A DNA stretch of 59,938 nt from Syntrophaceae bacterium (GTDB taxonomy: Bacteria; Desulfobacterota; Syntrophia; Syntrophales; Smithellaceae): contig PLGI01000116.1 of assembly GCA_003139775.1 (NCBI GenBank), forward strand, positions 1 through 59,938, read 5' to 3'. Below are positions 2,483 through 58,050 of the stretch, in pieces. The notes below the pieces were generated by a model, which did no database searches, was not told the DNA's origin, and saw only the letters and a program-made list of their open reading frames with translations. Every line of letters starts with the position of its first letter. The first letter of the stretch is position 1. The position numbers and the translations under genes are program-made.

Positions 2483-2646
2483 AATGAAACTCCAATTTCG
2501 AAAGCGAAGCGCATCGAAATTGGTAAGTTGTAATGAGGCTTAAACTTCAAAAGCAACGCGCATTGAAGTTCTTTAGCCGAATTATCCAATCCCGATTAAT
2601 CGGGATTGGGAATTATCCCACGTGCGAAGCTAAGTGGGACTTGTAC
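2483..2646. repeat. Mosaic hairpin repeat patch (4 consecutive hairpins) in the leuD-leuC spacer
   Basis: Stems: ccaatttc/gaaattgg (2492-2522), aacttcaa/ttgaagtt (2543-2570), the 24-nt palindrome ccaatcccgattaatcgggattgg (2586-2609) and tcccac/gtggga (2626-2649). Loops contain GCGAAGC. Modules recur at 5650-5850, 6123-6290, 38011-38235, 44351-44403 and 57891-58050. Confidence 0.85.
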
Positions 2647-2652
2647 ATTTTG

Positions 2653-3912
2653 TTATAACTCCAACGGAGACGCAATTCTGCCTAATACAGCAGAAGCCGC
2701 TGCTACAGCAGGGCTGGCCAGATAGACTTCACTTTTGGGATGGCCCATGCGGCCGACAAAGTTACGGTTCGTTGTAGAGACAGCTCTTTCTCCTTCCGCC
2801 AGAATTCCCATGTGCCCGCCTAAACAGGCACCGCAGGAAGGCGGGCTGATTATGGCGTCGGCGTTCATGAAAATCTCAATCAATCCTTCCTTCAATGCTT
2901 GCTTGTAAATCGCCGGAGTTGCCGGAACAACAATCAACCTTACATGGGACGCGGCTTTACGTTTTTTCAGAATCTGTGCGGCAATTCTCAAATCTTCAAT
3001 CCGGCCGTTGGTACAGGAGCCGATGAGCGACTGGTCGATTTTTACCTTGCCTGCTTTGCTTATTGGTTTGACATTGGAAGGCAAATGAGGGAACGCCACC
3101 TGCGGCTCAATATCGCCGGCGTTGATTTCGATAATGTCGGAATAGACGGCATCGGCATCGGAGGTATAAAATTTATAATCGCGCTTCGCTCTTTTTTTGA
3201 CGTATTCTCTGGTAATCGCATCAGGAGCGAAAATGCCGTTTTTTGCGCCGGCTTCAATGGCCATGTTGGCCATGGAGAGTCTGTCGGCCATCGGCAATTT
3301 GCCGATTGTTTCTCCGGTAAATTCCATCGCCTTATATAGAGCTCCGTCAACACCAATGCGGCCTATGATATGCAAAATTAAATCCTTGCCGGAAACCCAT
3401 TTTTGCAGTTTGCCGTAAACAACGAATTTGATCGATTGCGGCACTTTGAACCAGAGCTCTCCGGTGAGCATGACGGCGGCAAGATCCGTGCTGCCCACGC
3501 CGGTGGCAAATGCGCCCAGTGCACCGTAAGTGCAGGTATGGCTGTCCGCGCCAATGACTAAATCTCCGGGCAGAACAATGCCCTGTTCCGGCAATAAAGC
3601 GTGCTCAATGCCCACTTGTCCGCCTTCGTAAAAATGAGTTACTTTCTGTTTCAGCGCAAATTCGCGCACAGCCTTGCATTGCTGGGCGGAATTAATATCT
3701 TTATTCGGCGTGAAATGGTCCAGAACTAAAGCAACTTTGTTTTTGTCAAAAACTTTTTTCCCGCCCGCCTTTTGGAATTCATTAATCGCTATAGGCGCGG
3801 TGACATCGTTGCCCAAAGCGATATCCACTCTGGCGTTGATCAACTGACCGGCAGAGATTTTTTTCAGGGCGGTGTGTGCCATTAAAATTTTTTCCGTAAT
3901 AGTGTTGCCCAC
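2653..3912 (-). CDS. leuC: 3-isopropylmalate dehydratase large subunit
   Basis: Aconitase-family motifs ([21 protein letters not shown]). I shortened the 445-aa track ORF to the GTG at 3912 ([13 protein letters not shown]...), which has AAGGAG 7 nt upstream (complement of 3920-3925). This gives about 419 aa. Confidence 0.9.
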
Positions 3913-4087
3913 GATTATGCTCCTTTTTGAAAGTAATACCAATTTGCTTTCTTTGGCTAACTTTGTTGGCAGCGTCGTCGGCTTCCTCAACGTATTAATA
4001 ATACGCCTGCGGAGCCTCCTCCTTGCCGCCGCGTTATCCTTTGAAAGCGAAATGGTATTAGAATTTTCCTTATACTGTTTTTAATGT

Positions 4088-5649: not shown

Positions 5650-5850
5650 CAATGAGACTCTACTATTACAAGCGGTATTTCACGGACCCCCGCATACGCG
5701 AGGTTGTTCGGCTTATCAATTCTGCGGCACTCCGCTTCTCGAAGCTGCATCTCTTTACAATACACCCCCACTTGCTTCGCACGTGGGATAATTCAACTTA
5801 CAGATATTACTTCACTGCGCTCGTAATATCTGAGTTTCATTAAATTGGAG
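5650..5850. repeat. Mosaic hairpin repeat patch (inverted orientation) in the leuA 5' leader
   Basis: Read on the minus strand, 5788-5842 is aatgaaact-CAGATATTAC-gagcgcagtgaa-GTAATATCTG-taagttgaattatccc, the same module as 44351-44403. 5768-5790 is the cccac..GCGAAGC..gtggg hairpin also seen at 2626-2649. Confidence 0.8.
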
Positions 5851-5856
5851 CCTCAC

Positions 5857-5893
5857 AAAAAAAGGCCGTGGGTTTTTTCGCCCACGGCCTTTT
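5857..5893 (-). terminator. Rho-independent terminator/attenuator hairpin upstream of leuA
   Basis: ggccgtggg (5864-5872) pairs with cccacggcc (5881-5889) across an 8-nt loop. A 7-A run at 5857-5863 gives a U-tract on the minus-strand transcript, and there is a shorter T-run on the plus side. Confidence 0.7.
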
Positions 5894-5916
5894 AGGTAAT
5901 CAGTTATTTTTATATG

Positions 5917-6036
5917 CTAGCGATGACCTAAAAACGATGGGCAGGTGGCCTCAAGTAAAAGGCGCAACAGGGCGAAGCCCAGAAGCATGGGCAGAGTGTT
6001 GATTGCTAAATTCTTATTTTTCGCTATGTCCGACAT
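5917..6036 (-). CDS. Candidate Leu-rich leader peptide (39 aa) of the leu operon
   Basis: Hand translation: MSDIAKNKNLAINTLPMLLGFALLRLLLEATCPSFLGHR*. It has 10 Leu of 39 and the run LLRLLL. It lies between a sigma70-like promoter and the terminator at 5857-5893. No good SD is present, so translation is uncertain. Confidence 0.3.
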   Translation of the reverse strand: MSDIAKNKNLAINTLPMLLGFALLRLLLEATCPSFLGHR

Positions 6037-6122: not shown

Positions 6123-6290
6123 TGTAATGAAACTCAAGTTTCAGGAACATAGTGAACTAAAACTTGTAAGTTGAATTAGTGAGACCCAATTTTCAGAAGC
6201 GAAGCGACCTGAAACTTGTTGGACGAACTATCCAGTATGCGAAGCATACAGTGGTATCCCGATAGCGCAGCGTATCGGGATTGACCGGTA
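6123..6290. repeat. Mosaic hairpin repeat patch between the leu promoter and the tRNA cluster
   Basis: The patch contains aatgaaact-caagtttcag...ctaaaacttg-taagttgaatta (6126-6178). It also has gagacccaattttcagaagcGAAGCgacctgaaa (6181-6215), tatGCGAAGCata, and atcccgat..atcggga. It is homologous to 35783-35880 and 46016-46100. Confidence 0.85.
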
Positions 6291-9234: not shown

Positions 9235-9254
9235 AAAAATATTGAGCGTTTGAT

Positions 9255-9468
9255 ATAAGAAGGTCGAAGACAGCAGGTACGGAAGTTTAAACGTAAGATG
9301 GCCTGCCGAGACTCGTAGAATAAAAATAGTTACTTTATTTTTTGTAAAGGTAAACAATTTTTGGAAAACGGGAATCGGAGTCAGGCAAGGTTACCGTTTT
9401 TCGTTCTGTATGTGGCTAGATTCTCCGGCCTCAGGGAAATAAAATAATTTTGAAAGGAGGCTGATAGA
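9255..9468 (+). promoter_or_regulatory. Probable L10 (rplJ) leader RNA
   Basis: This is a 234-nt untranslated gap before rplJ. It contains aaggtcgaagacagcaggtac...ggcctgccgag (9260-9315), a helix resembling the L10-leader/23S stalk-base mimic, and a later aaaacgg...ccgtttt hairpin. Confidence 0.4.
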
Positions 9469-25794: not shown

Positions 25795-25795
25795 C

Positions 25796-35774: not shown

Positions 35775-35880
35775 ATGACATAGTGAGACCCAAATTTCAG
35801 AAGCGGAGCGCACTGAAATTTTCAGGTCGAACTATCTCAGGAGCGAAGCGACTGGGGACTAGGAAGCACCGGTCACATTT
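35775..35880. repeat. Mosaic hairpin repeat patch
   Basis: gtgagacccaaatttcagaagcggagcgcactgaaatt...ctcaggaGCGAAGCgactgggg. It is collinear with 6179-6260 and 46016-46100. Confidence 0.8.
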
Positions 35881-37098: not shown

Positions 37099-37947
37099 AT
37101 GTTCAATATCGCAAGAAAAGCAGTTTTTGTACTGATAATATTTTGTTTGATAGCAGGTTCGGTGTTTGCCGCTGAATCAATTGTGATTAAAGGATCAACA
37201 ACGGTTTTGCCGATTGCTCAGGCAGCTTTGGAGGCCTACATGAAGGCCAATCCCGGGGTTCAGATTTCTTTATCTGGCGGTGGTTCCGGTGAAGGCATCA
37301 AAGCTTTACTTGATAAGACAACCGATATCGCCGATTCTTCGCGCGAAATTAAGAAAGAAGAAATTGAGTTGGCAGAAAAGAACGGTGTAAAGCCGCTTGC
37401 TCATGTTGTGGCTTACGACGCTATTATTCCTGTTGTTCATCCTAAAAACAAAGTAACCAACTTATCCATTGATCAGTTAAGCCAGATTTATCAGGGTAAA
37501 ATTACCAACTGGAAAGAAGTAGGCGGAGAAGATTTGAAGATTGTAGTCATTTCCCGCGATTCATCTTCCGGCACCTTTGAATCATGGGATCATTTCATTA
37601 TGAAAAAAGCCAGGGTTACCCCCCAGGCGCAGATGCTGGCTTCTAATGGCGCAATTGTTACCGCAGTTTCCAAAAATCGTTATGCCATCGGCTATCTCGG
37701 CATGGGTTATGTCAATAAAAGTTTAAAGCCTCTGCCGGTCGATGGGATTAAAGCTTCCGTGGAAACAGCTCTTTCTAAAGAATATCCATTATCCCGCGAA
37801 CTTTACATGTACACCAACGGTGAACCGACAGGCGAAGTGGCTAAATTTATCGCCTTTGTAAAATCTGCCGATGGGCAGAAAATAGTGGCCAAGGAAGGAT
37901 TTGTTCCTTTGGTGACATTAAAAAAGAGTAAGAGCGGTAAGAAATAA
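37099..37947 (+). CDS. pstS: Phosphate ABC transporter substrate-binding protein
   Basis: It has a signal peptide and the PBP motifs IKGSTTVLPIAQAA and SGGGSGEG. The ATG at 37099 follows GGAGGA. Confidence 0.88.
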   Translation: MFNIARKAVFVLIIFCLIAGSVFAAESIVIKGSTTVLPIAQAALEAYMKANPGVQISLSGGGSGEGIKALLDKTTDIADSSREIKKEEIELAEKNGVKPLAHVVAYDAIIPVVHPKNKVTNLSIDQLSQIYQGKITNWKEVGGEDLKIVVISRDSSSGTFESWDHFIMKKARVTPQAQMLASNGAIVTAVSKNRYAIGYLGMGYVNKSLKPLPVDGIKASVETALSKEYPLSRELYMYTNGEPTGEVAKFIAFVKSADGQKIVAKEGFVPLVTLKKSKSGKK

Positions 37948-37994
37948 AAACCCCTGCTTACTTTCGGAAGATTTTCGGAAAATGTATTCCGAGA

Positions 37995-38235
37995 AGAAAA
38001 GCGTTTTATTGTGAAACTCCAATTCCGAAAGCGAAACGTATAACCTAATAACCTGAAGGTCACGCGAGGTCACACGTTGGAATTGGTAAGTTGTAATGAG
38101 ACAAGCTGAAAACGAATGAAATGAAGTTTGAAGCGTTAGTCGAATTATCCCGCAAAGCGGAGGGTGCAATACCCCGCAGCTTGCTGCGAAATGTTTCCAA
38201 AGCTTGCTTTGGGGTTCATACCCGTGATTTATTTG
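37995..38235. repeat. Mosaic hairpin repeat patch (pstS-pstC spacer, part 1)
   Basis: gtgaaactCCAATTCCG...TTGGAATTGGtaagttgtaatgag (38011-38100) has a nested insert. It is followed by gaattatcccgcaaagcgg and accccgcagcttgctgcg...ccaaagcttgctttgg...acccgtgatt. The patch is collinear with 57891-58050. Confidence 0.85.
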
Positions 38236-38288
38236 CACCCATAATGCAGCCCGGTCGCAGATGGTTGAGGCGATATTAAATAAATTTT

Positions 38289-38332
38289 AAAGGGATCGGT
38301 ATACGGCGTTCAGCGCCGGTACCGATCCTGCG
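38289..38332 (+). other. Long imperfect hairpin in the pstS-pstC spacer
   Basis: ggatcggta...taccgatcc outer stem enclosing cggcg-ttcag-cgccg. Confidence 0.5.
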
Positions 38333-38393
38333 CAAATTGATCCTCTTGTTGTCTTGGTGATGAAATAAAAAATTGAATTGAAAAATAATTTGG

Positions 38394-38598
38394 TTAATCC
38401 TGCGGTTTGGAATATCCCGGCTTCAGCCGGGCGAGGAATGCGGTGCAACCTGCGGGAAGGTCGCGTTATCCTCTACTTCACGGGATAATTCGACCTGCAA
38501 GCTTCAGTCGTAGATGACCTTCAGGTTGTGCACTTTGTCTCTGAAGCTTTGGTCTCATTATTGTGGGGAACCTACGGCTCCTGCCGGTGGGGGCTCGA
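38394..38598. repeat. Mosaic hairpin repeat patch (pstS-pstC spacer, part 2)
   Basis: It aligns by eye over its whole length with the reverse complement of 44216-44489, starting ttaatcctgcgg.ttggaata.cccgg...ggaatgcgg and ending ...cctgccggtgggggctc. Confidence 0.8.
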
Positions 38599-38661
38599 CT
38601 ATTTGTATTTGCCCGCCAGTAATTATTTTAAAATTGGGCTTAAATTCTTAAGGGAAATATT

Positions 38662-39549
38662 ATGACCAGACAAACAAAAGAAATAATCATCAAGTATGTC
38701 TTTTTCACTTTTTCTCTGGTCTCTATTATTGTCCTGGGGTTGATTGTTTTTTCTCTCTTCCGGGAAGGCCTGCCGATATTCGGGAAAGTCTCTGTTAAAG
38801 ATTTTTTACTGGGAATGGAATGGTACCCGACTTCCGATCCGCCTTCATTTGGAATTTTTCCTTTGATAATTGGTTCGCTTATCGTAACGGTTCTGGCAAC
38901 GATTATTGCCGTGCCGCTGGGCGTTATGGCCGCTATTTATATTTCCGAAATCGCACCTCAGGCAATTAAGGAAATTCTCAAATCAGTCATTGAACTTTTG
39001 GCTGGATTACCTTCCGTTGTACTTGGCTTCTTCGGGATGGTGGTGGTAGCTCCCTGGCTGCAGGATACGTTTGATCTTCCCACCGGTTTAAACATCATCA
39101 ATGCATCCATGATTCTGGCCATTATGGCTATACCAACTATTTCCAGTCTTTCTGAGGATGCCTTGTATGCTGTACCCCGGGAGTTCAAAGAAGCGTCGTA
39201 CGCTCTGGGCGCCACTAAATTTGAGACCATTACGCGGGTGATCATTCCGTCGGCTCTGTCCGGTATTTCCACGGCTGTGATGCTGGGTATGGCGAGGGTC
39301 ATTGGCGAGACCATGGTTGTTTTGATGGTGGCCGGAGGCGCGGCCGCTATTCCCGGGAGCATTTTCGATTCGGTTCGCCCGATGCCCGCAAGCATTGCCG
39401 CAGAAATGGGAGAAGCGCCTTTTCGCAGCGCCCATTATCAGGCACTTTTCGCTATTGGCATCGTTTTATTTTTTCTTACACTCTTTTTTAATCTGGTTGC
39501 CGATTATGTTTCCCACAAATTCCGCCAAGTTGGGTCGGGGACTCTTTAG
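38662..39549 (+). CDS. pstC: Phosphate ABC transporter permease PstC
   Basis: 295 aa with 6 TM-like segments and the EAA-type loop EASYALGATKFETITRVIIPSA. Confidence 0.9.
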   Translation: MTRQTKEIIIKYVFFTFSLVSIIVLGLIVFSLFREGLPIFGKVSVKDFLLGMEWYPTSDPPSFGIFPLIIGSLIVTVLATIIAVPLGVMAAIYISEIAPQAIKEILKSVIELLAGLPSVVLGFFGMVVVAPWLQDTFDLPTGLNIINASMILAIMAIPTISSLSEDALYAVPREFKEASYALGATKFETITRVIIPSALSGISTAVMLGMARVIGETMVVLMVAGGAAAIPGSIFDSVRPMPASIAAEMGEAPFRSAHYQALFAIGIVLFFLTLFFNLVADYVSHKFRQVGSGTL

Positions 39550-41921: not shown

Positions 41922-43669
41922 AACGCAATCTTTTTTTTAAAATATTATTCAGCTATCTGGTTATTGTCTGTTTGTCATTTTTTATTCTGGATCTATTGAT
42001 TAAGGACGAGATTAAAAAAGTCATGACGGATAAGATTGAGGCTGAACTATTTGCCTATGCCGAACTAATTGATTTGAATCCGGCACAGAAAATGTCTGAT
42101 CAGCTCCAGCAAATTGCCCGGATATCCAACTCCCGAGTTACACTGGTGGACGCGCAGGGCAGAGTGTTAGCTGATTCGGAGAAAGATATCATCACAATGG
42201 AGAATCATTTTAATCGTCCGGAATTGCAGGAAGCCCGGCTAAAGGGCAAGGGCAAATCCATCCGCTTCAGCCAGACCATCGGCGTGGATATGCTTTACGT
42301 GGCCATACCCATGAAGTCAGGATCACAGATAACAGGATATGTGCGTTTCGCACGCCCTCTTCATGATGTACAGAGCGCGATTGAAAAAATCTATCAATCT
42401 ATTTTTCTGGCAATGATGATTGTTGCGATTATAGCGCTTGTCATTGCACTGATCTTTTCTTACCGTTTAACTGCGCCGATTCGAGCGCTGGAAAAATTCA
42501 CTGAAAGATTGCGTCAGGGCGAGCCTTCGGGGAGCATTATTTTAAAAACGTCAGATGAAACGAAGAATCTGGCCGATAACATCAATTATCTTGTAGATGA
42601 ACTGCAAAGTCAGATTCGGCTGGCCAATGAAGAGAAAAGTAAGCTGATGACGGCTTTTACCAGCATGACCGAAGGAGTTCTTATTCTCAATGCGGAAGAT
42701 AAAATAGAATTTGTCAATCAGGCATTGGGTAACATGCTGGCTGAACAATACGGAGATATTAATGGTAAAACGCTGATGGAAGCCTTCCTCAATGCAGACT
42801 TGCAAAAATCATTTCTTAAATTTAAGGAGAAACATATCACGGTAGTTGAGGAAGTCACTCTGGGCAGCTTCGAGCCGGTCATCTTAGGAGTCAGTATCTC
42901 TTCCGTGCATAATTATCCGGGCGAAGAAAAAGTAATGGTGGTCTTTCATGATGTTACAAGGTTGAAGAAACTGGAAAAGATTCGTGTTGATTTTGTAGCC
43001 AATGTCACGCATGAAATTCGTACACCGCTTACAGCTATTATAGGCTATCTGGAAACAATTAATGCCGGAGCAATCAATAACACGGATGACGCTAAAAGAT
43101 TTATTGATATAAGCTTGAAACAGGCCCGGCGTTTGAATCGTCTAGTTGAAGATTTACTGGTCATATCAAAAGTTGAGCTGGGTGAAATTAAATTACATTT
43201 TGAAGGAGTTTCTGTACGTGATGTTTTCGTAAGTGCCATGCCGCTTGTTGAGGCGAAGGCCGGATTAAAAAAAATAAACATACAAAATAACTTGCAGAAA
43301 AATCTCCCACACATTTGGGCAGACAGAGACAGGCTTACTCAGATACTGGTAAATGTTTTAGACAATGCCGTCAAGTTCACGCCGGAGGATGGCAGTATTT
43401 TTATTGATGCCGGGCAAAAAGATAACTATATTGTATTGACAATAACAGACACGGGAATCGGCATACCGAAAGAAGAAGTTCAGCGTCTTGGTGAGCGTTT
43501 TTACCGGGTGGAACGGTCGCGTTCGCGCGATTTGGGCGGAACCGGGCTCGGGCTGTCAATTGTTAAGCATCTGATGATTGCTCACGGCGGCAAAATGGAA
43601 ATCGAAAGCCAATTGGGTCGTGGAACTAAAGTGTCTTTATTTTTCCCAATGAGAATAATTAATTGCTAG
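41918..43669 (+). CDS. phoR: Phosphate-sensing histidine kinase, PhoR-like
   Basis: It has TM segments, a PAS-like region, the H-box FVANVTHEIRTPLT and the HATPase boxes DTGIGI and GGTGLGLSIVKH. The GTG start at 41918 follows AAAGGAG and overlaps the phoU stop (GTGA). Confidence 0.85.
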   Translation: MKRNLFFKILFSYLVIVCLSFFILDLLIKDEIKKVMTDKIEAELFAYAELIDLNPAQKMSDQLQQIARISNSRVTLVDAQGRVLADSEKDIITMENHFNRPELQEARLKGKGKSIRFSQTIGVDMLYVAIPMKSGSQITGYVRFARPLHDVQSAIEKIYQSIFLAMMIVAIIALVIALIFSYRLTAPIRALEKFTERLRQGEPSGSIILKTSDETKNLADNINYLVDELQSQIRLANEEKSKLMTAFTSMTEGVLILNAEDKIEFVNQALGNMLAEQYGDINGKTLMEAFLNADLQKSFLKFKEKHITVVEEVTLGSFEPVILGVSISSVHNYPGEEKVMVVFHDVTRLKKLEKIRVDFVANVTHEIRTPLTAIIGYLETINAGAINNTDDAKRFIDISLKQARRLNRLVEDLLVISKVELGEIKLHFEGVSVRDVFVSAMPLVEAKAGLKKINIQNNLQKNLPHIWADRDRLTQILVNVLDNAVKFTPEDGSIFIDAGQKDNYIVLTITDTGIGIPKEEVQRLGERFYRVERSRSRDLGGTGLGLSIVKHLMIAHGGKMEIESQLGRGTKVSLFFPMRIINC

Positions 43670-44061: not shown

Positions 44062-44215
44062 TGACCTGCGCGAGTTTAAATATTTGATTTGCTCATTAGC
44101 GATGCCGCAATTCAAATGGTATTAATTTTATTTTAAGTAACATGTACGGACTCGTGGGTGTTGTCGAGAATATTTTTTTCATCCATTCCTTCCTGAAAAC
44201 AGTAAATCGTCAGCT

Positions 44216-44489
44216 TTGAGTGGAGCCTCCTCCGGCAGGTGCCGGAGGCTTCCCGTAATAATAAGATCCAAACTTCAGAAATAAAGTGCATAACCTAATA
44301 ACCTGAAGGTCACGCGAGGTCATCTATGACTGATGCTTGCAGGTCGAATGAATGAAACTCAAATATTACAAACGCAGTGCCGTAATATTTGTAAGTTGAA
44401 TTCATCCCGCGAAGCAGAGGATAGCGCGGCCTTCCGCGGGTTTTAGCGCATTCCTTCCCCGGCTGGGGGATTCCAAGTCGCGGGATTAA
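44216..44489. repeat. Mosaic hairpin repeat patch (inverted copy of 38394-38598 with extra modules)
   Basis: Its reverse complement aligns with 38394-38598. It also carries the aatgaaact-CAAATATTAC...GTAATATTTG-taagttgaatt module (44351-44403). A 33-nt block (44290-44322) is identical to 38040-38072. Confidence 0.85.
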
Positions 44490-46011: not shown

Positions 46012-46198
46012 TATAATGAGTCCCAAATTTTAGAAGCGGAGCGCACTGAAATTTGCTGGACGATTTATCCCCAAAGCGTAGCGAAGTGGGATTTGAGACT
46101 CGCTGACTATAGGAAGCGTTAGTCGAATTATCCCCCAAGCATAGTACCCTGAAGGGCATCTGCGACGACGTGAGATTTGAGACTCCAATTTCAGAAAA
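46012..46198. repeat. Mosaic hairpin repeat patch
   Basis: It contains gagtcccaaattttagaagcggagcgcactgaaatt, ccccaaagcgtaGCGAAGTgggg, cgaattatccc and gagactccaatttcag. It is collinear with 6179-6260 and 35783-35880. Confidence 0.85.
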
Positions 46199-46712: not shown

Positions 46713-46870
46713 GGCCTTTTCCATCGGATGGGCTGGTCGCGTTCGCGAGATTTGGGCGGAACTAGTTTCGGATTGTCGATAGTGAAACATTTGATGATTG
46801 CTCATGGAGGCAAGATAGAAATTTAATGACAGTTTGACTGCGGCACAAAAGTATCTTTATTTTTCCCGAT
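46713..46870 (+). pseudogene. Decayed fragment of a histidine-kinase 3' end (paralogous to the phoR 3' end)
   Basis: It aligns by eye with phoR 43495-43650 (...ggtcgcgttcgcg.gatttgggcggaac...catttgatgattgctca.gg.ggcaa.at.gaaat...gt.tctttatttttccc). It would encode ...SRSRDLGGTSFGLSIVKHLMIAHGGKIEI but has in-frame TAA TGA. No upstream kinase body is present. Confidence 0.8.
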
Positions 46871-47847: not shown

Positions 47848-48135
47848 TTTGTCATTGCGATGATCAGCCAAAAGCGGAGAAGAAGCAATCCCATAACTAG
47901 ACGGATGCCACTTTGAACGAATGCGAGAAGTCTTAAGACAGTTGAAGGAAGTGTCGTTGCCCAAAAATCCTTTTCGCTGCCGGAAAGCGTTTTGGATAAA
48001 TCTAAGGCTTGCTTCAGGCGATTACAAAACTCGCCTTCGGCTCAATCAGTTGTAATCGCTGATCTTACGCTTCGCCAAGATTTATTAGCCAATACGCTTT
48101 CAATGGCCGTTCAAATAGATATTTTTTGGGCAACA
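47848..48135. repeat. Hairpin-rich repeat/MITE-like segment
   Basis: It begins with gtcattgcga...gaagcaatc. A 12-bp inverted repeat, gttgcccaaaaa (47956-47967) / tttttgggcaac (48123-48134), encloses a 10-bp stem gcgattacaa (48018-48027) / ttgtaatcgc (48050-48059). Confidence 0.6.
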
Positions 48136-48243: not shown

Positions 48244-48894
48244 ATGAAGGAATATATTAAAAAATTGGGGGAAAAATCTTCTTCTGAAATACTTAAGATA
48301 GTGCATTTTCATGCATTAACAGCGTATACATATTATTTTACAGAAAAAAAGGTCACTTCTGGAGAAAAACTTACACTTATACTTGCCGATCCAAGATTTA
48401 ATAAAGAAACTATTTCAGGTACAGAACTTCTCCCTAGGTTAAGAGATTACAATAAAACTTATTTAATAGATTTATCATTCCTTCATTGCGTTTCAATATT
48501 TGAATGGTATTTATTTGATTTATTAGAGGCATTGCTAAAGTTAAGGCCAGAACACATTGGCAGTAAGAAGCAATTAGAGTTAAGTATAGTTTTTGACTCA
48601 GCAGATAAATCTGAAATCATTGAAAAAATAATTGACGCTGAGTTAAACAAACTAAAATATCAAAATGTCATTGAATGGATGGTCTATCTAAATAAAATAG
48701 TAAAAATTAAATATCCATCAGATAGTGACATTAAAAAATTGGCAGAAATAAAAGCCAGCAGAGATATAATAGTGCACAATAATTATATAGTGAATGATGT
48801 ATACTTAAGGAAATCGGGGAAATGTGCTAGGTTTAAGCTTGGAGGAAAGCTAAATGTAAATGAAAAGGAGTATTTTAATCTTGTTTGGGGTTAA
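48244..48894 (+). CDS. HEPN-like (RxxxxH) hypothetical protein, possibly 3'-truncated
   Basis: 216 aa, all-helical-looking and very AT-rich. It has an Rx4H motif in ...KLAEIKASRDIIVHNNYIVND about 40 aa from the C-terminus, as in HEPN RNase-type domains. It is flanked by repeat patches, and no partner gene was seen. Confidence 0.5.
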   Translation: MKEYIKKLGEKSSSEILKIVHFHALTAYTYYFTEKKVTSGEKLTLILADPRFNKETISGTELLPRLRDYNKTYLIDLSFLHCVSIFEWYLFDLLEALLKLRPEHIGSKKQLELSIVFDSADKSEIIEKIIDAELNKLKYQNVIEWMVYLNKIVKIKYPSDSDIKKLAEIKASRDIIVHNNYIVNDVYLRKSGKCARFKLGGKLNVNEKEYFNLVWG

Positions 48895-48896: not shown

Positions 48897-48916
48897 CCCC
48901 GTAGCTTGCTGCGGGG
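48897..48916. repeat. Palindromic repeat unit ccccgtagc-tt-gctgcgggg
   Basis: Same unit as accccgcagcttgctgcg (38171-38188) and accccacagcttgctg (57974-57989). It starts 2 nt after the HEPN-like ORF stop. Confidence 0.8.
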
Positions 48917-50533: not shown

Positions 50534-52975
50534 ATGATGAACGCGATTGGGCATAAGAAACTCAACATATTAAATCTCGATTTAACTATTGCCTTTTTGA
50601 TTACGATAATAATTTTTATTTCCTGCCCCGGAGCTTCCGCTTCTGAAACTAAAAATAATGACAATCCTGTGAATATTAAAGCGGACAGCATGAACGGCGA
50701 TGATCTTTCCGATGTATCCCGTGTTCAAGGAAAAATAACCCTAATTTATAAAGGTCCTGCTCCCGATGCCGAGGATACAGGGGGAGATAATAAAAACAAT
50801 ATTGCCGCCGCTCCCGGAGCTTCGGCTGTTGAAACTAAAAATAATGGCAATCCCGCGAACATTGAAGCGGACAGTATGGACTACGACAATGTTCGCGACG
50901 TATACCATGCTCAAGGTAAAGTGAATATAATTTATAGCGGCGCCACTCTCTATGCCGATGACATGGAACTGGATAATAAAAACAATATTGCCACCGCTCA
51001 GGGCAGTGCCTCTCTGAAGATGGGAGAGGATACTTTGCAGGGCGATAAAATTGTTTTCAATATTGAAGACAAGACCGGAGCTGTTTATAAAGCCCATGCT
51101 TTTTATGCGAGGAACCATTTCTATATAACAGGCGATAAAATTGAGAAAACCGGAGAAAATACATATTTCATCGAAAACCCGGTTGCCACAACATGTGATG
51201 GCGATAATCCTGATTGGAAAATCACCGGCAGTGAAATGAAGGTAACAATTGAAGGTTATGGCCTGATGAAAAACGCCTGGTTACTGGCGAGAGGTTTGCC
51301 GGTGTTCTATTCTCCATTTCTTCCTTTTCCCGCAAAAACTCAACGTCAATCGGGATTTCTTGTTCCCTATCTTTCCTCCTCCGGGAATGATGGTATCGAT
51401 GTTGAGGTCCCTTATTTTTGGGCGATTTCTCCGCAGATGGACGCAACGTTTTATCAGCGTTACATCGAAAAAAGAGGATTTAAAGAAGGCGCGGAATTCA
51501 GATACTATTTAGGAAATAATTCATCCGGTACTTTTTACGGCGATTACATGGAGGATACTAAACACGTTACCGAAACGACCGATGCCGCAACCAGCCGCGA
51601 CTGGCAGGAAATGCATCAGCGTTGGTCTTATTATTTAAATCACCAAACAGACTTTGATCCACAATTTTATGTAAGGACTGATTTGCGCCAGGTTTCCGAC
51701 AAATGGTACTTTAAAGATTTTTCAGCGCACAACTACTACCTTGATCATTATAGCCAAACAGCGGATGACCCGTTTAAGAAGGTTCCTTTTCAGGGCGATC
51801 AAACTATGCGTTATCTGGACTCAACTATCCGCGTGGTTAAAAGCTGGTCTAATTACAATTTGACGGGATTGATCAGTTCCACTGACGATTTTGCGGCCGT
51901 TAATAATGATCAAACTTTGCAAAAATATCCGGAGATCGTTTTTACGGGCATCAAACAGCCATTTTTGAAGACACCCTTATATTATGAATTTGCGGGCACT
52001 TATGATTATTTCTACCGCGGCGAAGGCCAGAAGGGCCAATATGGTGATTTTTCACCAACTGTTTCTTTGCCGTTTAATATATTCGACTATATTAAAGTAA
52101 TTCCACAGTTTGCTTTGAAAGAGACATTCTGGAGCCGGGATGACAATTTAGCGGGAGCGGAAAGCAAAAGCGGTGACAGAACTATTCTCAACGCTTCATT
52201 GGACTTGAGCAGTCAGCTTTCCCGTGTCTTTGATGTAAATGTGCAAAATTGGGAAAAAATCCAACACGTAATAAAATCCGAAATAACCTATTCTTACGTT
52301 CCAAACGTGTCGCGAGATAATTTGCCTGATTACTATTTGCCTGCCTTTTCGCCATTCGTAATGCCCATCACATCTGTAGGCACTATAATGCCCATCACAT
52401 CTTCATCTTTGGATGAACAAAACGCCATTGCCTGGTCGCTTACGAACACTTTTATTGCTAAAATAAGAGATGAAAAAGGAGCCTATAGCTACTTGGAATT
52501 TCTCCGGCTTAAACTGTTTCAAACTTATGACCTAAATGAAGCGAATAAAAGTATGGAGGGGGTTATTGGTGAAAGACGGCCTTTTTCTGATCTCGGAATG
52601 GAGTTTGATTTTACTCCTTATAAATATTTTTCTTTTACGGCGCGCAATCTTTACAGTGTTTATGATGGCTGGACACAAACGAATTATGATTTGAATCTAA
52701 AAGATTGGCGCGGAGATACGCTGGTGCTAGGTTATCTTTATACTTTAGGATCTATTGAAGAAATCAACGTTAACTTAAAAGCGGTAATTACCCCAAATAT
52801 TGACGGCACATTTATTACGGCAATCGATCGATATAATTCCCAAACAGTAGGGACTACAGTGGGGCTTATTTATCACAAACAATGTTGGAGCATGGGATTA
52901 GAGTATACCCAGACCGCTACCGACAGTAGAGTTGTATTTAAAATATCACTGGCCGGTTTGGGTAAGTTGCTTTAA
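50534..52975 (+). CDS. lptD: LPS-assembly protein LptD (OstA family)
   Basis: 813 aa with a signal peptide, an OstA_N-like N-terminus (ADSMDYDN...AQGKVNIIY...DNKNN) and a large C-terminal beta-barrel region (FLVPY.S.S...G..V..PYFWAISP..D). Confidence 0.85.
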   Translation: MMNAIGHKKLNILNLDLTIAFLITIIIFISCPGASASETKNNDNPVNIKADSMNGDDLSDVSRVQGKITLIYKGPAPDAEDTGGDNKNNIAAAPGASAVETKNNGNPANIEADSMDYDNVRDVYHAQGKVNIIYSGATLYADDMELDNKNNIATAQGSASLKMGEDTLQGDKIVFNIEDKTGAVYKAHAFYARNHFYITGDKIEKTGENTYFIENPVATTCDGDNPDWKITGSEMKVTIEGYGLMKNAWLLARGLPVFYSPFLPFPAKTQRQSGFLVPYLSSSGNDGIDVEVPYFWAISPQMDATFYQRYIEKRGFKEGAEFRYYLGNNSSGTFYGDYMEDTKHVTETTDAATSRDWQEMHQRWSYYLNHQTDFDPQFYVRTDLRQVSDKWYFKDFSAHNYYLDHYSQTADDPFKKVPFQGDQTMRYLDSTIRVVKSWSNYNLTGLISSTDDFAAVNNDQTLQKYPEIVFTGIKQPFLKTPLYYEFAGTYDYFYRGEGQKGQYGDFSPTVSLPFNIFDYIKVIPQFALKETFWSRDDNLAGAESKSGDRTILNASLDLSSQLSRVFDVNVQNWEKIQHVIKSEITYSYVPNVSRDNLPDYYLPAFSPFVMPITSVGTIMPITSSSLDEQNAIAWSLTNTFIAKIRDEKGAYSYLEFLRLKLFQTYDLNEANKSMEGVIGERRPFSDLGMEFDFTPYKYFSFTARNLYSVYDGWTQTNYDLNLKDWRGDTLVLGYLYTLGSIEEINVNLKAVITPNIDGTFITAIDRYNSQTVGTTVGLIYHKQCWSMGLEYTQTATDSRVVFKISLAGLGKLL
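50627..50998 (+). repeat. In-frame 186-bp tandem duplication inside lptD
   Basis: 50627-50812 and 50813-50998 align head-to-tail (cccggagcttc.gct..tgaaactaaaaataatg.caatcc.g.gaa.attaa/gaagcggacag.atg...gataataaaaacaatattgcc.ccgct). They encode PGASA.ETKNN.NP.NI.ADSM...QGK...IY...DNKNNIA.A twice. Confidence 0.9.
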
Positions 52976-56355: not shown

Positions 56356-56365
56356 ATGGTCCTCC

Positions 56366-57871
56366 TTACTCTTCAAAGACTTGTGCCTGTGGCACCTGAG
56401 GTGCGATGAGGCATTTGAAAGCATTGAGTCTGTTGAGCTGATTTGTTCCCTCGTAAATCTGCAAAAGTTTGATGTCGCGCAGCATCTTTTCAACACCGGC
56501 ATCCTGTCTTAGTCCTTTTTGACCCATGATCTCTATGGCCATCTGACAATTTTTGACGCCAAGATCAGTCCCGGTGATTTTTGCCACCGACGCCCAGCCC
56601 GAGCAACAGCGTTGGTCTTCAGGTTTCGGCATATCAAATAAAAGTTTGCCCATGACTCTGGCCGTGATCTCCCAATTGAGCATCGGTGAGATAACTTTGT
56701 CAAACCAGAACCGCGGCATGGCCTTGAGATAATAATAGACCGGTTTGCTTTGCAGGAGCCGATACAAACCGCGATGACTATTGGCGTTGTTGGCTTCGGT
56801 ATAAGCAAGCCTTCCCAGAATAACGTTTTTATGCATCTCGGCGAGCATACACTGCGCCCACTCTTGATTAATCAGCAGGCGGCCGTTGACGCTGGTTGTG
56901 GACGCGTAATGCAGGGCCGTTTCAAACGCCCCGCGCGCGACGCCAATGCCGAAGGCGCAGACGCCCGGGCGCGTGGCGGACACCACATAGTCGCAGTAGC
57001 GCTGGGAAATATCTCTGGCAGGCTTATTTGTAAATTTTTTTACGAGAGCCGAACTGAAGAGAACCTGGTCATCCGGGATGAAGCAGTCTTCAAAGATAAG
57101 CACACTGGCCGGGCAGACCCTCTGTCCCATCTTATTTTCATGGCTGCCGAAGGAAAACCCTTTCGTGCCGGTCTTCACGATAAAGCCGATGGTCGTTTCG
57201 GATGGATGCTTTGTGTCTTCATACGCGTAAAGAACCGTCCATGAGGAGACATGCCCCATGGAAATGAACACCTTCGTGCCATTGACGATGAAGCCACCTT
57301 TGACGCGTTTAGCCTGACAAGTGACCTTGCCCTTATCCACAAGGTCGACCTCCTCTACATCGGTCCCGGCGCCCGGTTCCGTCGTGGCTAACGCCAGCAC
57401 ACAGGGCTTGCCCGACTTTTCGCCCTCAACAACCTCCCGAAGAATCTTTTTGGCCAGGCGGATGTTGCCCGAAGCAGTCAGACCGGCCACAGCCAGGTAA
57501 TGAACGCCGATGACATTCATAATGCCGACGCAGACAGAAGCGACTTCTTCGGAAAAGCAGGACATGGATGGCATGTTATAACCATGGCCGCCGAATATTT
57601 TCGGTATCCACATGGTGTAGAGGCCCCACCGGTTGGCTTCCTCCACCAGTTCCCAAGGCAGGTAATCCGGATCTTTGTGGGTGAGACGGTCGAGCTTAAG
57701 GGCAAGGGGGTTCGCCACTTCCTCGTTGAACTTGCGGGCGATGGCTATAACCTCCCTGGTTTCCTTCACCATATGTTTCGGCATGTGGGGAGCATAGGAC
57801 AGGCCCAGCCATGTATCTTCAAATTTAGGAAAATGTGACAGAATGGACACGACTTCTGAGTTGGTCAGCAT
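56366..57871 (-). CDS. Acyl-CoA dehydrogenase-family protein (long form, canonical IYEGTNQ)
   Basis: 501 aa with TEPGAGTD, the middle beta-domain, and C-terminal RDIKLLQIYEGTNQLNRL. Confidence 0.85.
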   Translation of the reverse strand: MLTNSEVVSILSHFPKFEDTWLGLSYAPHMPKHMVKETREVIAIARKFNEEVANPLALKLDRLTHKDPDYLPWELVEEANRWGLYTMWIPKIFGGHGYNMPSMSCFSEEVASVCVGIMNVIGVHYLAVAGLTASGNIRLAKKILREVVEGEKSGKPCVLALATTEPGAGTDVEEVDLVDKGKVTCQAKRVKGGFIVNGTKVFISMGHVSSWTVLYAYEDTKHPSETTIGFIVKTGTKGFSFGSHENKMGQRVCPASVLIFEDCFIPDDQVLFSSALVKKFTNKPARDISQRYCDYVVSATRPGVCAFGIGVARGAFETALHYASTTSVNGRLLINQEWAQCMLAEMHKNVILGRLAYTEANNANSHRGLYRLLQSKPVYYYLKAMPRFWFDKVISPMLNWEITARVMGKLLFDMPKPEDQRCCSGWASVAKITGTDLGVKNCQMAIEIMGQKGLRQDAGVEKMLRDIKLLQIYEGTNQLNRLNAFKCLIAPQVPQAQVFEE

Positions 57872-57887
57872 ATAATCCTCCTATTTA

Positions 57888-58050
57888 TTGTTGAAACTCC
57901 AATTCCGAAAGCGTAGCGTATAACCTAAAGGTCACAAGTCGGAATTGCTAAGTTGAACAATCCCGCGCAGCAGAGGGTTTAGTACCCCACAGCTTGCTGT
58001 TGAACCTGTTTCCAAAGCTTGCTTTGGGGTTCTACCCGTGATTCCCCGTC
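57888..58050. repeat. Mosaic hairpin repeat patch inside the GC-rich cluster
   Basis: ttgaaactCCAATTCCGaaagcgtagcg...CGGAATTGCtaagttgaac...accccacagcttgctg...ccaaagcttgctttgg...acccgtgatt. It is collinear with 38011-38235. Confidence 0.85.

What the first reader, a model, noticed from the sequence alone, without database searches (positions are those of the whole stretch)
2483..58050. Family of mosaic, hairpin-rich interspersed repeats fills nearly every long intergenic gap
At least 11 patches are built from a few recurring modules, listed below. The patches are 2483-2646, 5650-5850, 6123-6290, 35775-35880, 37995-38235, 38394-38598, 44216-44489, 46012-46198, 47848-48135, 48897-48916 and 57888-58050. 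(A) aatgaaact-[10-bp stem/loop]-gtaagttgaat. (B) gagacccaa(a/t)tttcagaagcg(a/g)agcg..ctgaaa. (C) gaattatccc-[hairpin]. (D) accccgcagcttgctgcg...ccaaagcttgctttgg..acccgtgatt. The modules are shuffled, nested and found in both orientations, much like the BIME/REP mosaics of enterobacteria, but the sequences are unrelated. No transposase lies nearby. They explain most of the otherwise unaccountable non-coding DNA here. They also generate several false ORFs in the six-frame track.
Basis: seen in the sequence. Interest (0 to 1): 0.7.

Follow-up and report, generated by a model that had tools for sequence, protein, structure and literature searches.

The report
Mobile hairpin repeat mosaics in Smithella
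The window, from an uncultured Smithella bacterium, is peppered with a previously undescribed family of small hairpin-forming DNA repeats that behave like miniature mobile elements; one has landed inside a gene, and they come and go between close relatives.

Summary
Ten of the 11 patches belong to one repeat system; 47848-48135 is an unrelated element, and a further family at 3934-4058 was missed.

Modules A and B are one 55-nt hairpin "unit". Its helices covary strongly, and its foot carries an invariant TGA...GAA pair of G·A mismatches. Its apex is usually a C-GNA-G triloop. Module C is a short hairpin that follows 64% of units. Module D is the 3' end of a composite element.

Units occur in at least 32 species-level genomes. 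Nearly all are Smithellaceae, one is a Prolixibacteraceae MAG, and units also occur in phage contigs. Nothing matches in Rfam or in the searched literature.

Units are intergenic and show no bias relative to gene direction. Helices show no G:U excess, which argues for DNA rather than RNA.

Two composites have fixed ends, with no inverted repeats and no target duplication. They sit 3' of a short specific sequence (TTATT, or TTAA on the other strand). Empty sites exist in relatives. In the window, one copy splits a phosphatase-like gene that is intact elsewhere.

Best reading: non-autonomous single-strand (HUH-type) mobile elements. The enzyme was not found.

The parts
2482..2585 (+). Two tandem hairpin units in the leuC-leuD spacer, antisense to the operon. 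Heads are TGAAACTC and TGAGGCTT.
   Evidence: Covariance-model hits 2488-2530 (49.9 bits) and 2531-2585 (65.8 bits). The spacer is empty (24 nt) in close relative L114 and differently filled in L089 and L026.
2586..2641 (+). Two short C-type hairpins: CCAATCCCGATTAATCGGGATTGG and TCCCACGTGCGAAGCTAAGTGGGA. The second has a GCGAAGC apex.
   Evidence: Sequence read. Repeat coverage. The stop-proximal hairpin is conserved in L101, L116, L117 and L118.
5650..5864 (-). Degenerate type II composite in the leuA 5' leader. It includes unit 5788-5842(-) and a C hairpin.
   Evidence: Covariance-model hit at 73.5 bits. Ortholog L101 keeps TTTATT|GTGAGGCTCC at its left end. Sequence read.
6125..6290 (+). 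Two tandem units (6125-6179 and 6180-6227) followed by C-type hairpins.
   Evidence: Covariance-model hits at 69.7 and 49.5 bits. Repeat coverage.
35781..35858 (+). One unit (35781-35835) plus a C hairpin, downstream of the rplQ terminator.
   Evidence: Covariance-model hit at 72.2 bits. Sequence read.
38006..38010 (+). TTATT target pentanucleotide directly 5' of the type II element.
   Evidence: The empty sites have it once: L200 GTC TTATT|TATCTGC and L201 GTG TTTTATT|TATCTGT. The window has it once.
38011..38229 (+). Type II composite element, GTGAAACTCC...ATACCCGTGATT. It contains a loop-expanded unit (38013-38094), unit 38094-38148, a C hairpin and the D module. It is inserted inside an LMWPc-type gene.
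   Evidence: The same ends occur in about 36 complete copies elsewhere and in 6 near-identical copies with unrelated flanks.
37982..38394 (+). Pseudogene of a low-molecular-weight phosphatase / ArsC-like protein, split by the type II element and further decayed.
   Evidence: tblastn with the intact L201 protein. Residues 1-10 map to 37982-38011. Residues 10-55 map to 38228-38365 with an in-frame stop. Residues 56-126 are missing.
38398..38598 (-). Type I composite, placed directly after TTAA on the + strand. It contains unit 38490-38556(-) plus a C hairpin.
   Evidence: L202 has the empty site GGTTAA|ATTTTTC. L201 has the element without the 91-nt unit+C cassette.
44221..44485 (+). Type I composite, TGGAGCC...GTCGCGGGA followed by TTAA. 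It holds a loop-expanded unit (about 44262-44349) and a nested A-type unit (44350-44404).
   Evidence: (72.3 bits). L051 is empty where L111 is filled. A 33-nt loop insert is identical to 38040-38072 (family D13).
46012..46198 (+). Units 46014-46068 and 46091-46131, C hairpins, and a terminal half-unit that abuts the psiE ribosome-binding site.
   Evidence: Covariance-model hits at 65.5 and 29.3 bits. Sequence read.
48897..48916 (+). Solo D-type hairpin CCCCGTAGCTTGCTGCGGGG.
   Evidence: Many 17-24-nt matches to D modules in other loci.
57885..58043 (+). TTATT target (57885-57889) plus a type II composite (57890-58043), GTTGAAACTCC...CTACCCGTGATT. It abuts the ribosome-binding site of the acyl-CoA dehydrogenase gene on the opposite strand.
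   Evidence: (unit 57892-57957).

Best explanation
The patches are non-autonomous mobile DNA built from one hairpin module.

The basic unit is 55 nt: TAATGA-R-nnn-C, a 9-bp stem, the loop AA(R-C-GNA-G-Y)GCA, the return stem, then G-xx-n'n'n'-Y-GAATTAT. It folds into a long imperfect hairpin. Units are usually followed by a short ATCCC...GGGAT hairpin.

Units and short hairpins are packaged into composite elements with fixed ends:
- Type II: GTGAAACTCC ... CCCGTGATT, 104-340 nt.
- Type I: TGGAGCC ... CGCGGGA.

These composites have no terminal inverted repeats and make no target duplication. They insert immediately 3' of a short specific sequence. For type II this is TTATT, and the element's own 3' end, TGATT, mimics it. 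For type I it is TTAA/TTGA, read on the other strand.

I infer that they move as folded single-stranded DNA, cut and rejoined by an HUH-type endonuclease supplied in trans. Candidate enzyme kinds are an IS200/IS605-like or REP-associated Y1 enzyme, or an IS91-like Y2 enzyme. On this view the covarying hairpins with the invariant TGA/GAA foot are the enzyme's recognition structure. Read-through past an end, or insertion next to or into resident copies, would produce the nested and shuffled mosaics.

Shown: the structure and its covariation; the fixed ends; empty and filled sites; one gene disruption; turnover between relatives; wide distribution.

Inferred: the single-strand mechanism and the enzyme class.

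Side effects on the host are plausible but untested. Examples are hairpins in 5' leaders and intercistronic spacers such as pstS-pstC.
For: Structure under selection:
- On 115 units, 93.5% of cells pair, against 73.5% in shuffles and 25-40% when partners are slid.
- The covariation score is 0.583 against 0.215, reached by 0 of 500 shuffles.
- Lower-helix pairs that were not used to pick the units also covary: 7-48 is GC 63 / AU 45, 10-45 is UA 78 / CG 32, and 23-29 is AU 53 / GC 46.
- G5·A50 and A6·G49 are invariant in 114-115 of 115 units. 59% of apexes are C-GNA-G.

DNA rather than RNA:
- G:T 47 against A:C 49 in helices.
- Patch orientation relative to flanking genes is 39 same against 35 opposite. 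Density is similar in convergent, co-directional and divergent spacers.
- No Rfam match.

Intergenic: 88% of 334 units lie outside ORFs of at least 120 aa, which cover about 79% of the DNA. Shuffled sequence gives 21 hits.

Discrete elements: six near-identical about 250-nt type II copies have unrelated flanks, no inverted repeats and no duplication. About 55 left ends were found, 36 with a right end 104-340 nt away. The right end is TGATT in 49 cases.

Insertion polarity and target:
- The window's type II copy splits an LMWPc gene that is intact in L201 and L202. The empty sites read TTATT|TAT and the filled site reads TTATT|GTGAAAC...CCCGTGATT|TAT.
- The same junction is seen in L114 (empty) against L089 (filled), and in L048 against L104.
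- In L032 a right end is directly followed by a left end.
- Type I: GGTTAA|ATTTT is empty in L202 and filled in L201 and the window. The flank is TTAA or TTGA in 9 of 11 copies.

Turnover: the leuC-leuD, leuA-leuC and pstS-pstC spacers range from empty to 714 nt among relatives with 88-96% protein identity.

Spread: at least 32 species-level genomes, a Prolixibacteraceae MAG and phage contigs.

Precedent: REP-like hairpins with a conserved 5' foot tetranucleotide are the substrates of Y1 HUH enzymes. This includes an atypical class with foot CnGA and about 600 copies per genome (PMC6006769).
Against: - No HUH gene is linked to the repeats. No recurrent transposase was found among 716 neighbouring ORFs.
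- No HUH-Y1-motif ORF was found in about 1.4 Mb of sampled loci.
- The one HUH gene found near the window, an IS91-family Y2 transposase on L203, has ends unlike the repeats. Its close homologs occur in many phyla that were not shown to carry the units.
- The left and right subterminal hairpins of type II are not alike. In IS608 they are.
- No significant orientation bias relative to GC skew was seen at patch level (p about 0.07-0.14).
- Nearest-neighbour energies favour the G·A strand only slightly, by -0.44 kcal/mol with DNA parameters.
- Only three type II and two type I empty/filled comparisons were available, and some are between diverged sequences.
- Unit-level gains and losses are bounded by 3-4-nt repeats (ATAA, TGA). 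These could equally arise by slippage or recombination.
Confidence: 0.5

Rival explanations
1. Domesticated REP-RAYT system (a "REPtron"). On this view the units are REP sequences serviced by a single-copy REP-associated Y1 transposase kept by the host, rather than parasitic IS-derived elements.
For: - High copy number, strictly intergenic position, and conserved hairpins with an invariant 5' foot (NTGA).
- Wide vertical spread across a bacterial family.
- Atypical feet such as CnGA are known for other HuH-Y1 classes (PMC6006769).
Against: - The canonical GT[AG]G foot is absent.
- Units are head-to-tail, not inverted doublets.
- Composite elements have IS-like fixed ends and a specific target, and one disrupts a gene.
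- Presence in phage contigs and in a Bacteroidota MAG looks parasitic.
- No RAYT-like ORF was seen next to any of more than 300 units.
Confidence: 0.17
2. Host-selected structured RNA elements. These could be mRNA stabilisers, processing sites, protein-binding hairpins or small RNAs, with the function read from the transcript.
For: - Strong covariation.
- Location in 5' leaders and intercistronic spacers such as pstS-pstC and leuC-leuD.
- From my own knowledge, REP hairpins are known to stabilise upstream mRNA in enterobacteria.
Against: - Orientation relative to transcription is random: 39 against 35 patches.
- G:U does not exceed A:C (47 against 49).
- Presence and absence vary between close relatives at every spacer examined.
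- One copy lies inside a coding sequence.
- No terminator-like T tracts.
- No Rfam match.
Confidence: 0.07
3. Repeats with no dedicated enzyme. On this view the hairpins are spread and reshuffled only by replication slippage, gene conversion and homologous recombination between copies. They might be retained as binding sites for a nucleoid protein.
For: - Cassette-like gain and loss is bounded by 3-4-nt direct repeats (ATAA, TGA).
- One unit is replaced by another at the same position in the window against L101.
- No linked transposase was found.
Against: - Recombination alone does not place identical 250-nt elements at unrelated loci with sharp ends.
- It does not explain repeated insertion exactly 3' of TTATT, including inside an ORF.
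- It does not explain cross-phylum and phage copies.
Confidence: 0.1
4. Classical MITEs, meaning deletion derivatives of DDE-transposase insertion sequences.
For: Small size, high copy number, intergenic position, and size classes.
Against: Type I and type II have no terminal inverted repeats and no target-site duplication. One other element in the window, at 47956-48133, does have inverted repeats, but it is a different family.
Confidence: 0.03
5. Integron-like folded recombination sites (attC-like), exchanged by a tyrosine recombinase.
For: - The units are imperfect hairpins with a conserved core, a 2-nt bulge and variable stems.
- A-type tails contain GTTGAAT, which fits GTTRRRY when read by eye.
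- Unit-level cassette exchange is seen.
- A tyrosine recombinase gene lies 4.8-5.6 kb outside the window.
Against: - No gene cassettes lie between units, and no intI/attI was found.
- Units occur in either orientation relative to flanking genes at scattered loci.
- B-type tails read GTCGAAT and break the core.
- The recombinase belongs to an IS91-type element that is widespread in other phyla.
Confidence: 0.03

Closest known systems
REP / BIME elements of enterobacteria and REPINs of Pseudomonas (substrates of RAYT / TnpA-REP)
   Same: - Very abundant, strictly extragenic imperfect hairpins of tens of nucleotides.
- A conserved short sequence at the 5' foot.
- Compensatory changes in stems.
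- Clustering into mosaics.
- Occupation of spacers such as pstS-pstC.
   Different: - The foot is NTGA with a matching GAA on the 3' side (a tandem G·A), not GT[AG]G.
- Units are arranged head to tail, not as alternating inverted pairs.
- Units are 55 nt with a secondary mini-hairpin at the apex.
- They are packaged in larger elements with their own fixed ends and targets.
- No RAYT was found in any of the sequence sampled.
IS200/IS605-family elements and their non-autonomous derivatives (PATEs)
   Same: - No terminal inverted repeats and no target duplication.
- Insertion 3' of a specific tetra- or pentanucleotide.
- The element's 3' end resembles the target.
- Subterminal hairpins, and size-variable non-coding derivatives.
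   Different: - No tnpA or tnpB partner with matching ends was found.
- The left and right hairpins are dissimilar.
- The interior is a variable array of a second-order repeat (the units).
- No replication-strand bias was detected.
IS91 / ISCR rolling-circle (Y2 HUH) elements
   Same: - A target tetranucleotide abuts one end, and a target-like sequence lies at the other end.
- No duplication.
- Read-through that captures flanking DNA could explain variable cargo.
- One such IS sits 3.3-5.6 kb outside the window.
   Different: - That IS has different ends (...GGTTTAGTTC|) and a different insertion context.
- Its relatives occur in many phyla.
BOX elements of Streptococcus pneumoniae
   Same: Modular intergenic repeats made from a few hairpin-forming box types in variable number, with no coding capacity and no known dedicated transposase. 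This comparison rests on my own knowledge.
   Different: The sequences are unrelated. BOX has a fixed A-Bn-C order and terminal inverted-repeat-like ends. Here there is nesting, several composite types and defined targets.
Atypical hairpin repeats flanking class 3 HuH-Y1 genes (for example about 600 copies in Solibacter usitatus; PMC6006769)
   Same: High-copy hairpins with a non-canonical 5' foot tetranucleotide (CnGA there, NTGA here), intermediate between an IS and a REPtron.
   Different: The taxa differ (Planctomycetes, Acidobacteria, Proteobacteria).

Membership tests
REP / RAYT (REPtron) | Imperfect palindrome of about 20-65 nt, present in high copy number and extragenic | tested here: met
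   55-nt hairpin. 12 units in 60 kb. 334 units in 896 kb, of which 88% lie outside long ORFs.
REP / RAYT (REPtron) | Conserved 5' GT[AG]G tetranucleotide at the hairpin foot | tested here: not met
   The foot is (A/G)TGA. T4, G5 and A6 are invariant in 115 of 115 units.
REP / RAYT (REPtron) | A Y1 HUH transposase gene (RAYT) flanked by the repeats | tested here: inconclusive
   None was found in about 1.4 Mb of sampled loci. Whole genomes could not be scanned.
BIME | REPs in alternating orientation, separated by defined linker motifs | tested here: not met
   Units within a patch are co-oriented in 74 of 79 co-directional spacers. Junctions are head-to-tail, GAAT-N-AATGA.
IS200/IS605-derived non-autonomous element (PATE) | No terminal inverted repeats and no target-site duplication | tested here: met
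   Six recent copies and the Prolixibacteraceae copies. Empty/filled junctions.
IS200/IS605-derived non-autonomous element (PATE) | Insertion 3' of a specific tetra- or pentanucleotide | tested here: met
   TTATT, or T(T/G)(A/G)TT, precedes about 55 left ends. Empty sites carry it once.
IS200/IS605-derived non-autonomous element (PATE) | Similar subterminal hairpins at both ends, recognised by TnpA | tested here: not met
   The left end is a unit-type hairpin. The right end is CCAAAGCTTGCTTTGG followed by 17 nt. They are not alike.
IS200/IS605-derived non-autonomous element (PATE) | An autonomous relative with the same ends that encodes TnpA | tested here: inconclusive
   No left end and right end were found enclosing an ORF in the loci. 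Genomes were not scanned.
IS91 family | A Y2 HUH transposase whose ends match the small elements | tested here: not met
   The L203 IS has ends GATACCACAATTC... and ...GGTTTAGTTC, unlike type I or type II.
Classical MITE (DDE-type) | Terminal inverted repeats plus a target-site duplication | tested here: not met
Rfam structured RNA family | Match to a curated covariance model | tested here: not met
   Only tRNAs at the gathering threshold. Nothing falls on the repeats at E<=1.
Functional RNA hairpin | A consistent strand relative to transcription, and G:U tolerated over A:C | tested here: not met
   39 against 35 patches. G:T 47 against A:C 49.
Intrinsic terminator | G+C-rich stem followed by a T tract | tested here: not met
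   No terminator-like site in 37900-38700. Unit tails are GAATTAT.
Integron attC array | Gene cassettes between sites, one orientation, and intI/attI nearby | tested here: not met
   Units abut one another with no ORFs between them. Patches lie in either orientation relative to flanking genes at scattered loci.

The most novel reading that the evidence does not exclude
The 55-nt units are the recognition hairpins of an as yet unidentified HUH-type (or other single-strand-specific) enzyme class that reads an NTGA/GAA tandem-G·A foot. With it they would form a hierarchical system. Hairpin cassettes would be exchanged at TAA|TGA cores. Composite carriers (types I and II) would ferry them between loci, phages and even phyla. 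That would be a REP-like system that is both modular and horizontally mobile.
Probability: 0.3. Interest if true: 0.7.

Novelty: new variant of a known kind. Interest (0 to 1): 0.5.

Why it matters
Smithella and its relatives are key syntrophic degraders of propionate and alkanes in digesters and sediments. They are known almost only from metagenome bins.

- A repeat system at about one unit per 5 kb, with rapid turnover, will break short-read assemblies and create false ORFs. It also alters 5' leaders and operon spacers and can inactivate genes, as with the phosphatase-like gene here.
- For mobile-DNA biology, it offers a clean natural data set. There are hundreds of covarying hairpins, sharp ends, empty sites, and copies in phages and another phylum. 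This could be used to find a new hairpin-recognising enzyme and to study how mosaics of small repeats are built.
- The fixed ends and high copy number also make strain-typing markers for uncultured syntrophs.

Tried and rejected
- Rfam at gathering score and at E<=1: nothing on the repeats.
- Literature searches by organism, topic and exact motif strings: nothing relevant.
- Hammerhead or K-turn readings of the TGA...GAA foot: rejected by inspection. The CUGANGA core is absent, and there is no 3-nt bulge next to the G·A pairs.
- Recurrent neighbour genes: only housekeeping families.
- HUH-Y1 motif scans of all six-frame ORFs in all loci: zero hits.
- Replication-strand bias: a 2:1 trend at unit level disappeared at patch level after correcting for gene orientation, so I make no claim.
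- Strand asymmetry of folding energy: small, so it carries little weight.
- Terminator or promoter function: no consensus sites in the pstS-pstC patches.
- A left end 2.6 kb from a right end in L029 looked like a possible autonomous copy. It encloses a radical-SAM-like gene, not a transposase.
- The IS91-family element beside the window was tested as the mobiliser. Its ends are unlike the repeats, and its homologs are spread over many phyla.
- PADLOC, Pfam and NCBIfam on the orphan ORF 48244-48894: no hit.
- A regular expression meant to census type I left ends failed. Only right ends were tabulated.

Full report
**Source and setting.**
The window has 43.4% G+C. It carries a tRNA cluster, secE-nusG-rplKAJL-rpoBC, the ribosomal protein operons, a leuA-leuC-leuD-leuB operon, pstSCAB-phoU-phoR and lipid-metabolism genes. 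Identical DNA occurs in many metagenome assemblies, including a 2.08-Mb contig. Close homologs of its PstS are named Smithella sp. or Smithellaceae by NCBI. The loci found with the repeat pattern come almost entirely from Smithella, Smithellaceae or "Syntrophaceae" MAGs.

**The observation.**
- The repeat finder recovers modules A and B as one 52-nt family, with inverted copies and a 33-nt exact repeat shared by 38040-38072 and 44290-44322.
- The motif GCGNAGC occurs 30 times in the window. Thirteen of these lie inside the patches, which make up about 3% of the DNA, and all are on the strand that carries the unit sense (read).
- Short-word BLAST against loci from other genomes, with orthologous regions excluded, validates nine patches. 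It also confirms the 20-nt hairpin at 48897.
- 47848-48135 is a different element of about 175 nt with terminal inverted repeats GTTGCCCAAAAA. It has one other copy, in L029.
- About 7 of about 12 long non-coding gaps outside the ribosomal operons contain the repeats.

**The unit.**
Two of these, L006 and L075, lack any hairpin and look like chance matches.

Relaxing the head and tail shows that A and B are subfamilies of one 55-nt architecture. The head triplets and tail triplets covary:
- ACT pairs with AGT.
- ACC pairs with GGT.
- TCC pairs with GGA.
- ATC pairs with GAT.
- GCT pairs with AGC.

On 115 distinct units I imposed the structure ((((..((((((((((((((..((...))...))))))))))..))))..)))). 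The results:
- 93.5% of cells pair. Shuffles give 73.5% and slid partners give 25-40%.
- The covariation score is 0.583 against 0.215, reached by 0 of 500 shuffles.

The upper stem was used to select the units. The lower helix and the apical mini-stem were not, and they covary just as clearly.

Two mismatches, G5·A50 and A6·G49, are invariant. The 3' strand carries a 2-nt bulge. The apex is C-GNA-G in 59% of units and C-ANA-G in 17%. From my own knowledge, GNA triloops closed by C-G, as in d(GCGAAGC), are unusually stable DNA mini-hairpins.

The unit is followed by an ATCCC...GGGAT hairpin (module C) in 64% of cases and by another unit in 17%. A subset of units carries an extra ATAACCTRAAGGTCAC hairpin inside the loop.

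**Abundance and spread.**
- The covariance model R1 finds 12 units in the window and 130 in 38 other loci totalling 297 kb.
- My own scanner finds 334 units in 896 kb, against 21 in shuffled sequence.
- True hits come from 32 different assemblies of the species-representative collection.
- I fetched 80 metagenomic loci through LeuC. Units occur only in three of them, with 85-88% LeuC identity. There are none in 72 loci of 77% identity or less, about 430 kb.
- Four contigs of a MAG named Prolixibacteraceae carry near-identical 215-nt composites. The same contigs encode sulfatases, glycoside-hydrolase-like proteins and CsgG/PorG-like proteins.
- Five stretches in four IMG/VR contigs carry units between genes, including Mu-type portal and protease genes and capsid genes.

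**DNA or RNA?**
- Units lie outside long ORFs in 88% of cases, although such ORFs cover about 79% of the DNA.
- Density per kb is similar in convergent (1.97), co-directional (1.44) and divergent (1.91) spacers.
- In co-directional spacers, 39 patches share the genes' strand, 35 oppose it and 5 are mixed.
- In helices, G:T mismatches (47) do not exceed A:C mismatches (49).
- There is no Rfam match and no terminator-like site.

These results argue against a strand-specific RNA function. They fit a DNA-level element whose hairpin is needed for its own propagation.

Predicted folding favours the G·A strand only slightly. Patch orientation shows no significant link to GC skew. I therefore make no claim about which strand is active.

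**Composite elements with fixed ends.**
Six near-identical copies from one MAG and a close relative align from TTTATT|GTGAGACTC... to ...CATACCCGTGATT|. Both flanks are unrelated. There are no inverted repeats and no duplication. Across the data there are about 55 such left ends. Thirty-six have a right end 104-340 nt downstream, and the terminal pentamer is TGATT in 49 cases. Module D is the right end of this "type II" element.

A second composite, "type I", runs from TGGAGCC... to ...CGCGGGA. It is followed by TTAA or TTGA in 9 of 11 copies. The window holds:
- type II at 38011-38229 and 57890-58043, plus a decayed copy at 5650-5864(-);
- type I at 44221-44485 and 38398-38598(-).

**Insertions, empty sites and turnover.**

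*The pstS-pstC spacer.*
- Its length is 35 nt in L199, which has 96% PstS identity.
- L201 and L202 hold an intact 118-138-aa LMWPc-type gene there.
- L200 holds a truncated copy of that gene.
- In the window the spacer is 714 nt.

tblastn shows that the window keeps residues 1-10 and 10-55 of that gene on either side of the type II element. It also has an in-frame stop and an internal deletion. The junctions are exact:
- L201: GTG TTTTATT|TATCTGT
- L200: GTC TTATT|TATCTGC
- window: GCG TTTTATT|GTGAAACTCC...ATACCCGTGATT|TATTTGC

So the element entered an ORF 3' of TTATT and duplicated nothing.

The same junction is seen at leuC-leuD. L114 is empty (TTTATT|TTACAG) and L089 is filled (TTTATT|AGTGAAAC...CCGTGATT|TTACAG). 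It is also seen in L048 against L104. In L032 a right end (…CCCGTGGTT) is directly followed by a left end. This fits a target that resembles the element's own 3' end.

*Type I.* L202 is empty (GGTTAA|ATTTTTC). L201 and the window are filled right after TTAA. L051 and L111 give another empty/filled pair.

*Units within composites.* The window's type I copy has a 91-nt unit+C cassette that L201 lacks, bounded by ATAA. L011 has two units and two C hairpins that L090 lacks, bounded by TGA.

*The leuC-leuD spacer.* Its state differs among relatives only about 9% apart in DNA:
- It is empty in L114.
- It carries one to three units in the window, L101, L116 and L117.
- One unit is swapped between the window and L101.
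- It carries a type II element in L089 and L026.

**Mechanism.**
The following features together match HUH-endonuclease elements that move as single-stranded DNA:
- fixed ends without inverted repeats;
- no duplication;
- a short specific target on one side only, mimicked by the element's other end;
- hairpins under structural selection.

The known families of this kind are IS200/IS605 and their non-coding derivatives, REP/RAYT, and the rolling-circle IS91/ISCR family. Their general properties are from my own knowledge and from PMC6006769, which I read; PMC3116915, PMC3479197 and PMC8266576 were only listed by the search. PMC6006769 also describes atypical high-copy hairpins with a non-canonical foot (CnGA) around a rare HuH-Y1 class. 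The NTGA foot here is therefore not out of line.

Two processes would account for nesting and shuffling: read-through past an end, and repeated insertion beside or inside resident copies. The second is possible because unit tails and heads contain target-like AT-rich pentamers.

This mechanism is inference. I found no enzyme.

**The search for an enzyme.**
- No transposase recurs among 716 neighbouring ORFs.
- No HUH-Y1 motif ORF exists in any fetched locus.
- Looking just outside the window on the 2.08-Mb contig revealed two mobile elements. One is a group II intron reverse transcriptase. The other is an IS91-family element with a Y2 transposase, a zinc-binding domain and a tyrosine recombinase.
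- That IS interrupts a sequence whose uninterrupted homolog is window 44078-44156. Local alignment scores are 35 and 43, against a shuffle maximum of 28.
- Its ends (...GGTTTAGTTC|) are unlike type I or type II.
- Its close homologs (78-94% identity) are named from Syntrophales, Desulfobacterales, Dehalococcoidia and others.

It shows that HUH enzymes are present in this genome. It is not a convincing partner for the repeats.

**Comparison and novelty.**
The system works like REP/BIME and PATE-type elements but fails defining tests of each:
- no GT[AG]G foot;
- no alternating orientation;
- dissimilar end hairpins;
- no known partner gene.

No description was found in Rfam or in the searched literature. 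I rate it a new variant of a known kind.

It is of moderate interest in its own right. It is useful as a route to a possibly new hairpin-recognising enzyme, and for annotating and assembling Smithellaceae genomes.

Noticed in passing
window 3934-4058 (gene-sense on the - strand), leuA-leuC spacer: A second repeat family. It is a long hairpin of about 125 nt with a conserved core, GGCGGCAAGGAGGAGGCTCCGCAGGCGTATTATTAATACGTTGAGGAAGCCGACGACGCTGCC, and variable but complementary outer arms. It has at least 12 copies in other loci. Empty sites are seen in L101, L114 and L109.
   Followed up: partly
window 47956-48133: An element of about 175 nt with terminal inverted repeats GTTGCCCAAAAA...TTTTTGGGCAAC. 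It is unrelated to the hairpin units. One 91%-identical copy lies at L029 4758-4935.
   Followed up: partly
window 37982-38394: Pseudogene of an LMWPc (low-molecular-weight phosphatase / ArsC-like) gene between pstS and pstC. It is intact in relatives L201 and L202, truncated in L200 and absent in L199.
   Followed up: yes
window 5855-6036 (- strand): A candidate leu-operon attenuator. It has a 39-codon ORF rich in Leu (MSDIAKNKNLAINTLPMLLGFALLRLLLEATCPSFLGHR) after a TTGACA-N17-TAGGAT promoter-like site. A strong hairpin with a T run follows at 5855-5895. The repeat composite lies between it and leuA.
   Followed up: partly
L203 12057-13379 and 15175-17761 (same strain; window position 1 corresponds to L203 11972): Just outside the left edge of the window lie two mobile elements. 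One is a group II intron reverse transcriptase (RVT_1 + GIIM). The other is an IS91-family element that encodes a small ORF, a 396-aa Y2 transposase and a 281-aa tyrosine recombinase. Close homologs of the transposase are common on contigs of about 2.6 kb from many phyla.
   Followed up: partly
window 44078-44156: This stretch is the uninterrupted counterpart of the sequence that the IS91-family element splits in L203 (15145-15174 and 17762-17811). It is either a preferred target or a miniature derivative of the two ends. Only these two copies were seen.
   Followed up: partly
window 48244-48894: An AT-rich orphan ORF of 216 aa with no Pfam, NCBIfam or PADLOC hit. It contains an Rx4H-like motif (RDIIVH), noticed by eye. 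In the near-identical strain L002 the ORF is called as three shorter ORFs (63, 158 and 51 aa), and the only gap in the window-L002 alignment is one indel of about 5 nt; its position was not checked. A solo D hairpin follows its stop codon.
   Followed up: partly
L194-L198 (IMG/VR contigs): Hairpin units lie between phage structural genes, including Mu-type portal and protease genes and capsid genes. Phages of these bacteria therefore carry the repeats and could spread them.
   Followed up: partly
L058, L078, L097, L102 (MAG JANQII01, named Prolixibacteraceae): Near-identical composites of about 215 nt (TTTATTTC-unit-C-...-GGGGTTGTTCAT) lie on contigs that encode sulfatases, GH-like proteins and CsgG/PorG-like proteins. 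This suggests transfer of the element to another phylum.
   Followed up: partly
window 43498-43650 and 46718-46870; window 50627-50998: A 153-nt direct repeat (76% identity) links the end of the phoR-like kinase gene with the gap upstream of the DUF169 gene. A tandem 186-nt duplication (76% identity) lies inside the lptD gene.
   Followed up: no
window 9246-9348: A sub-threshold Rfam match to the ribosomal protein L10 leader (34.8 bits, E=0.057), in the expected place upstream of rplJ.
   Followed up: no
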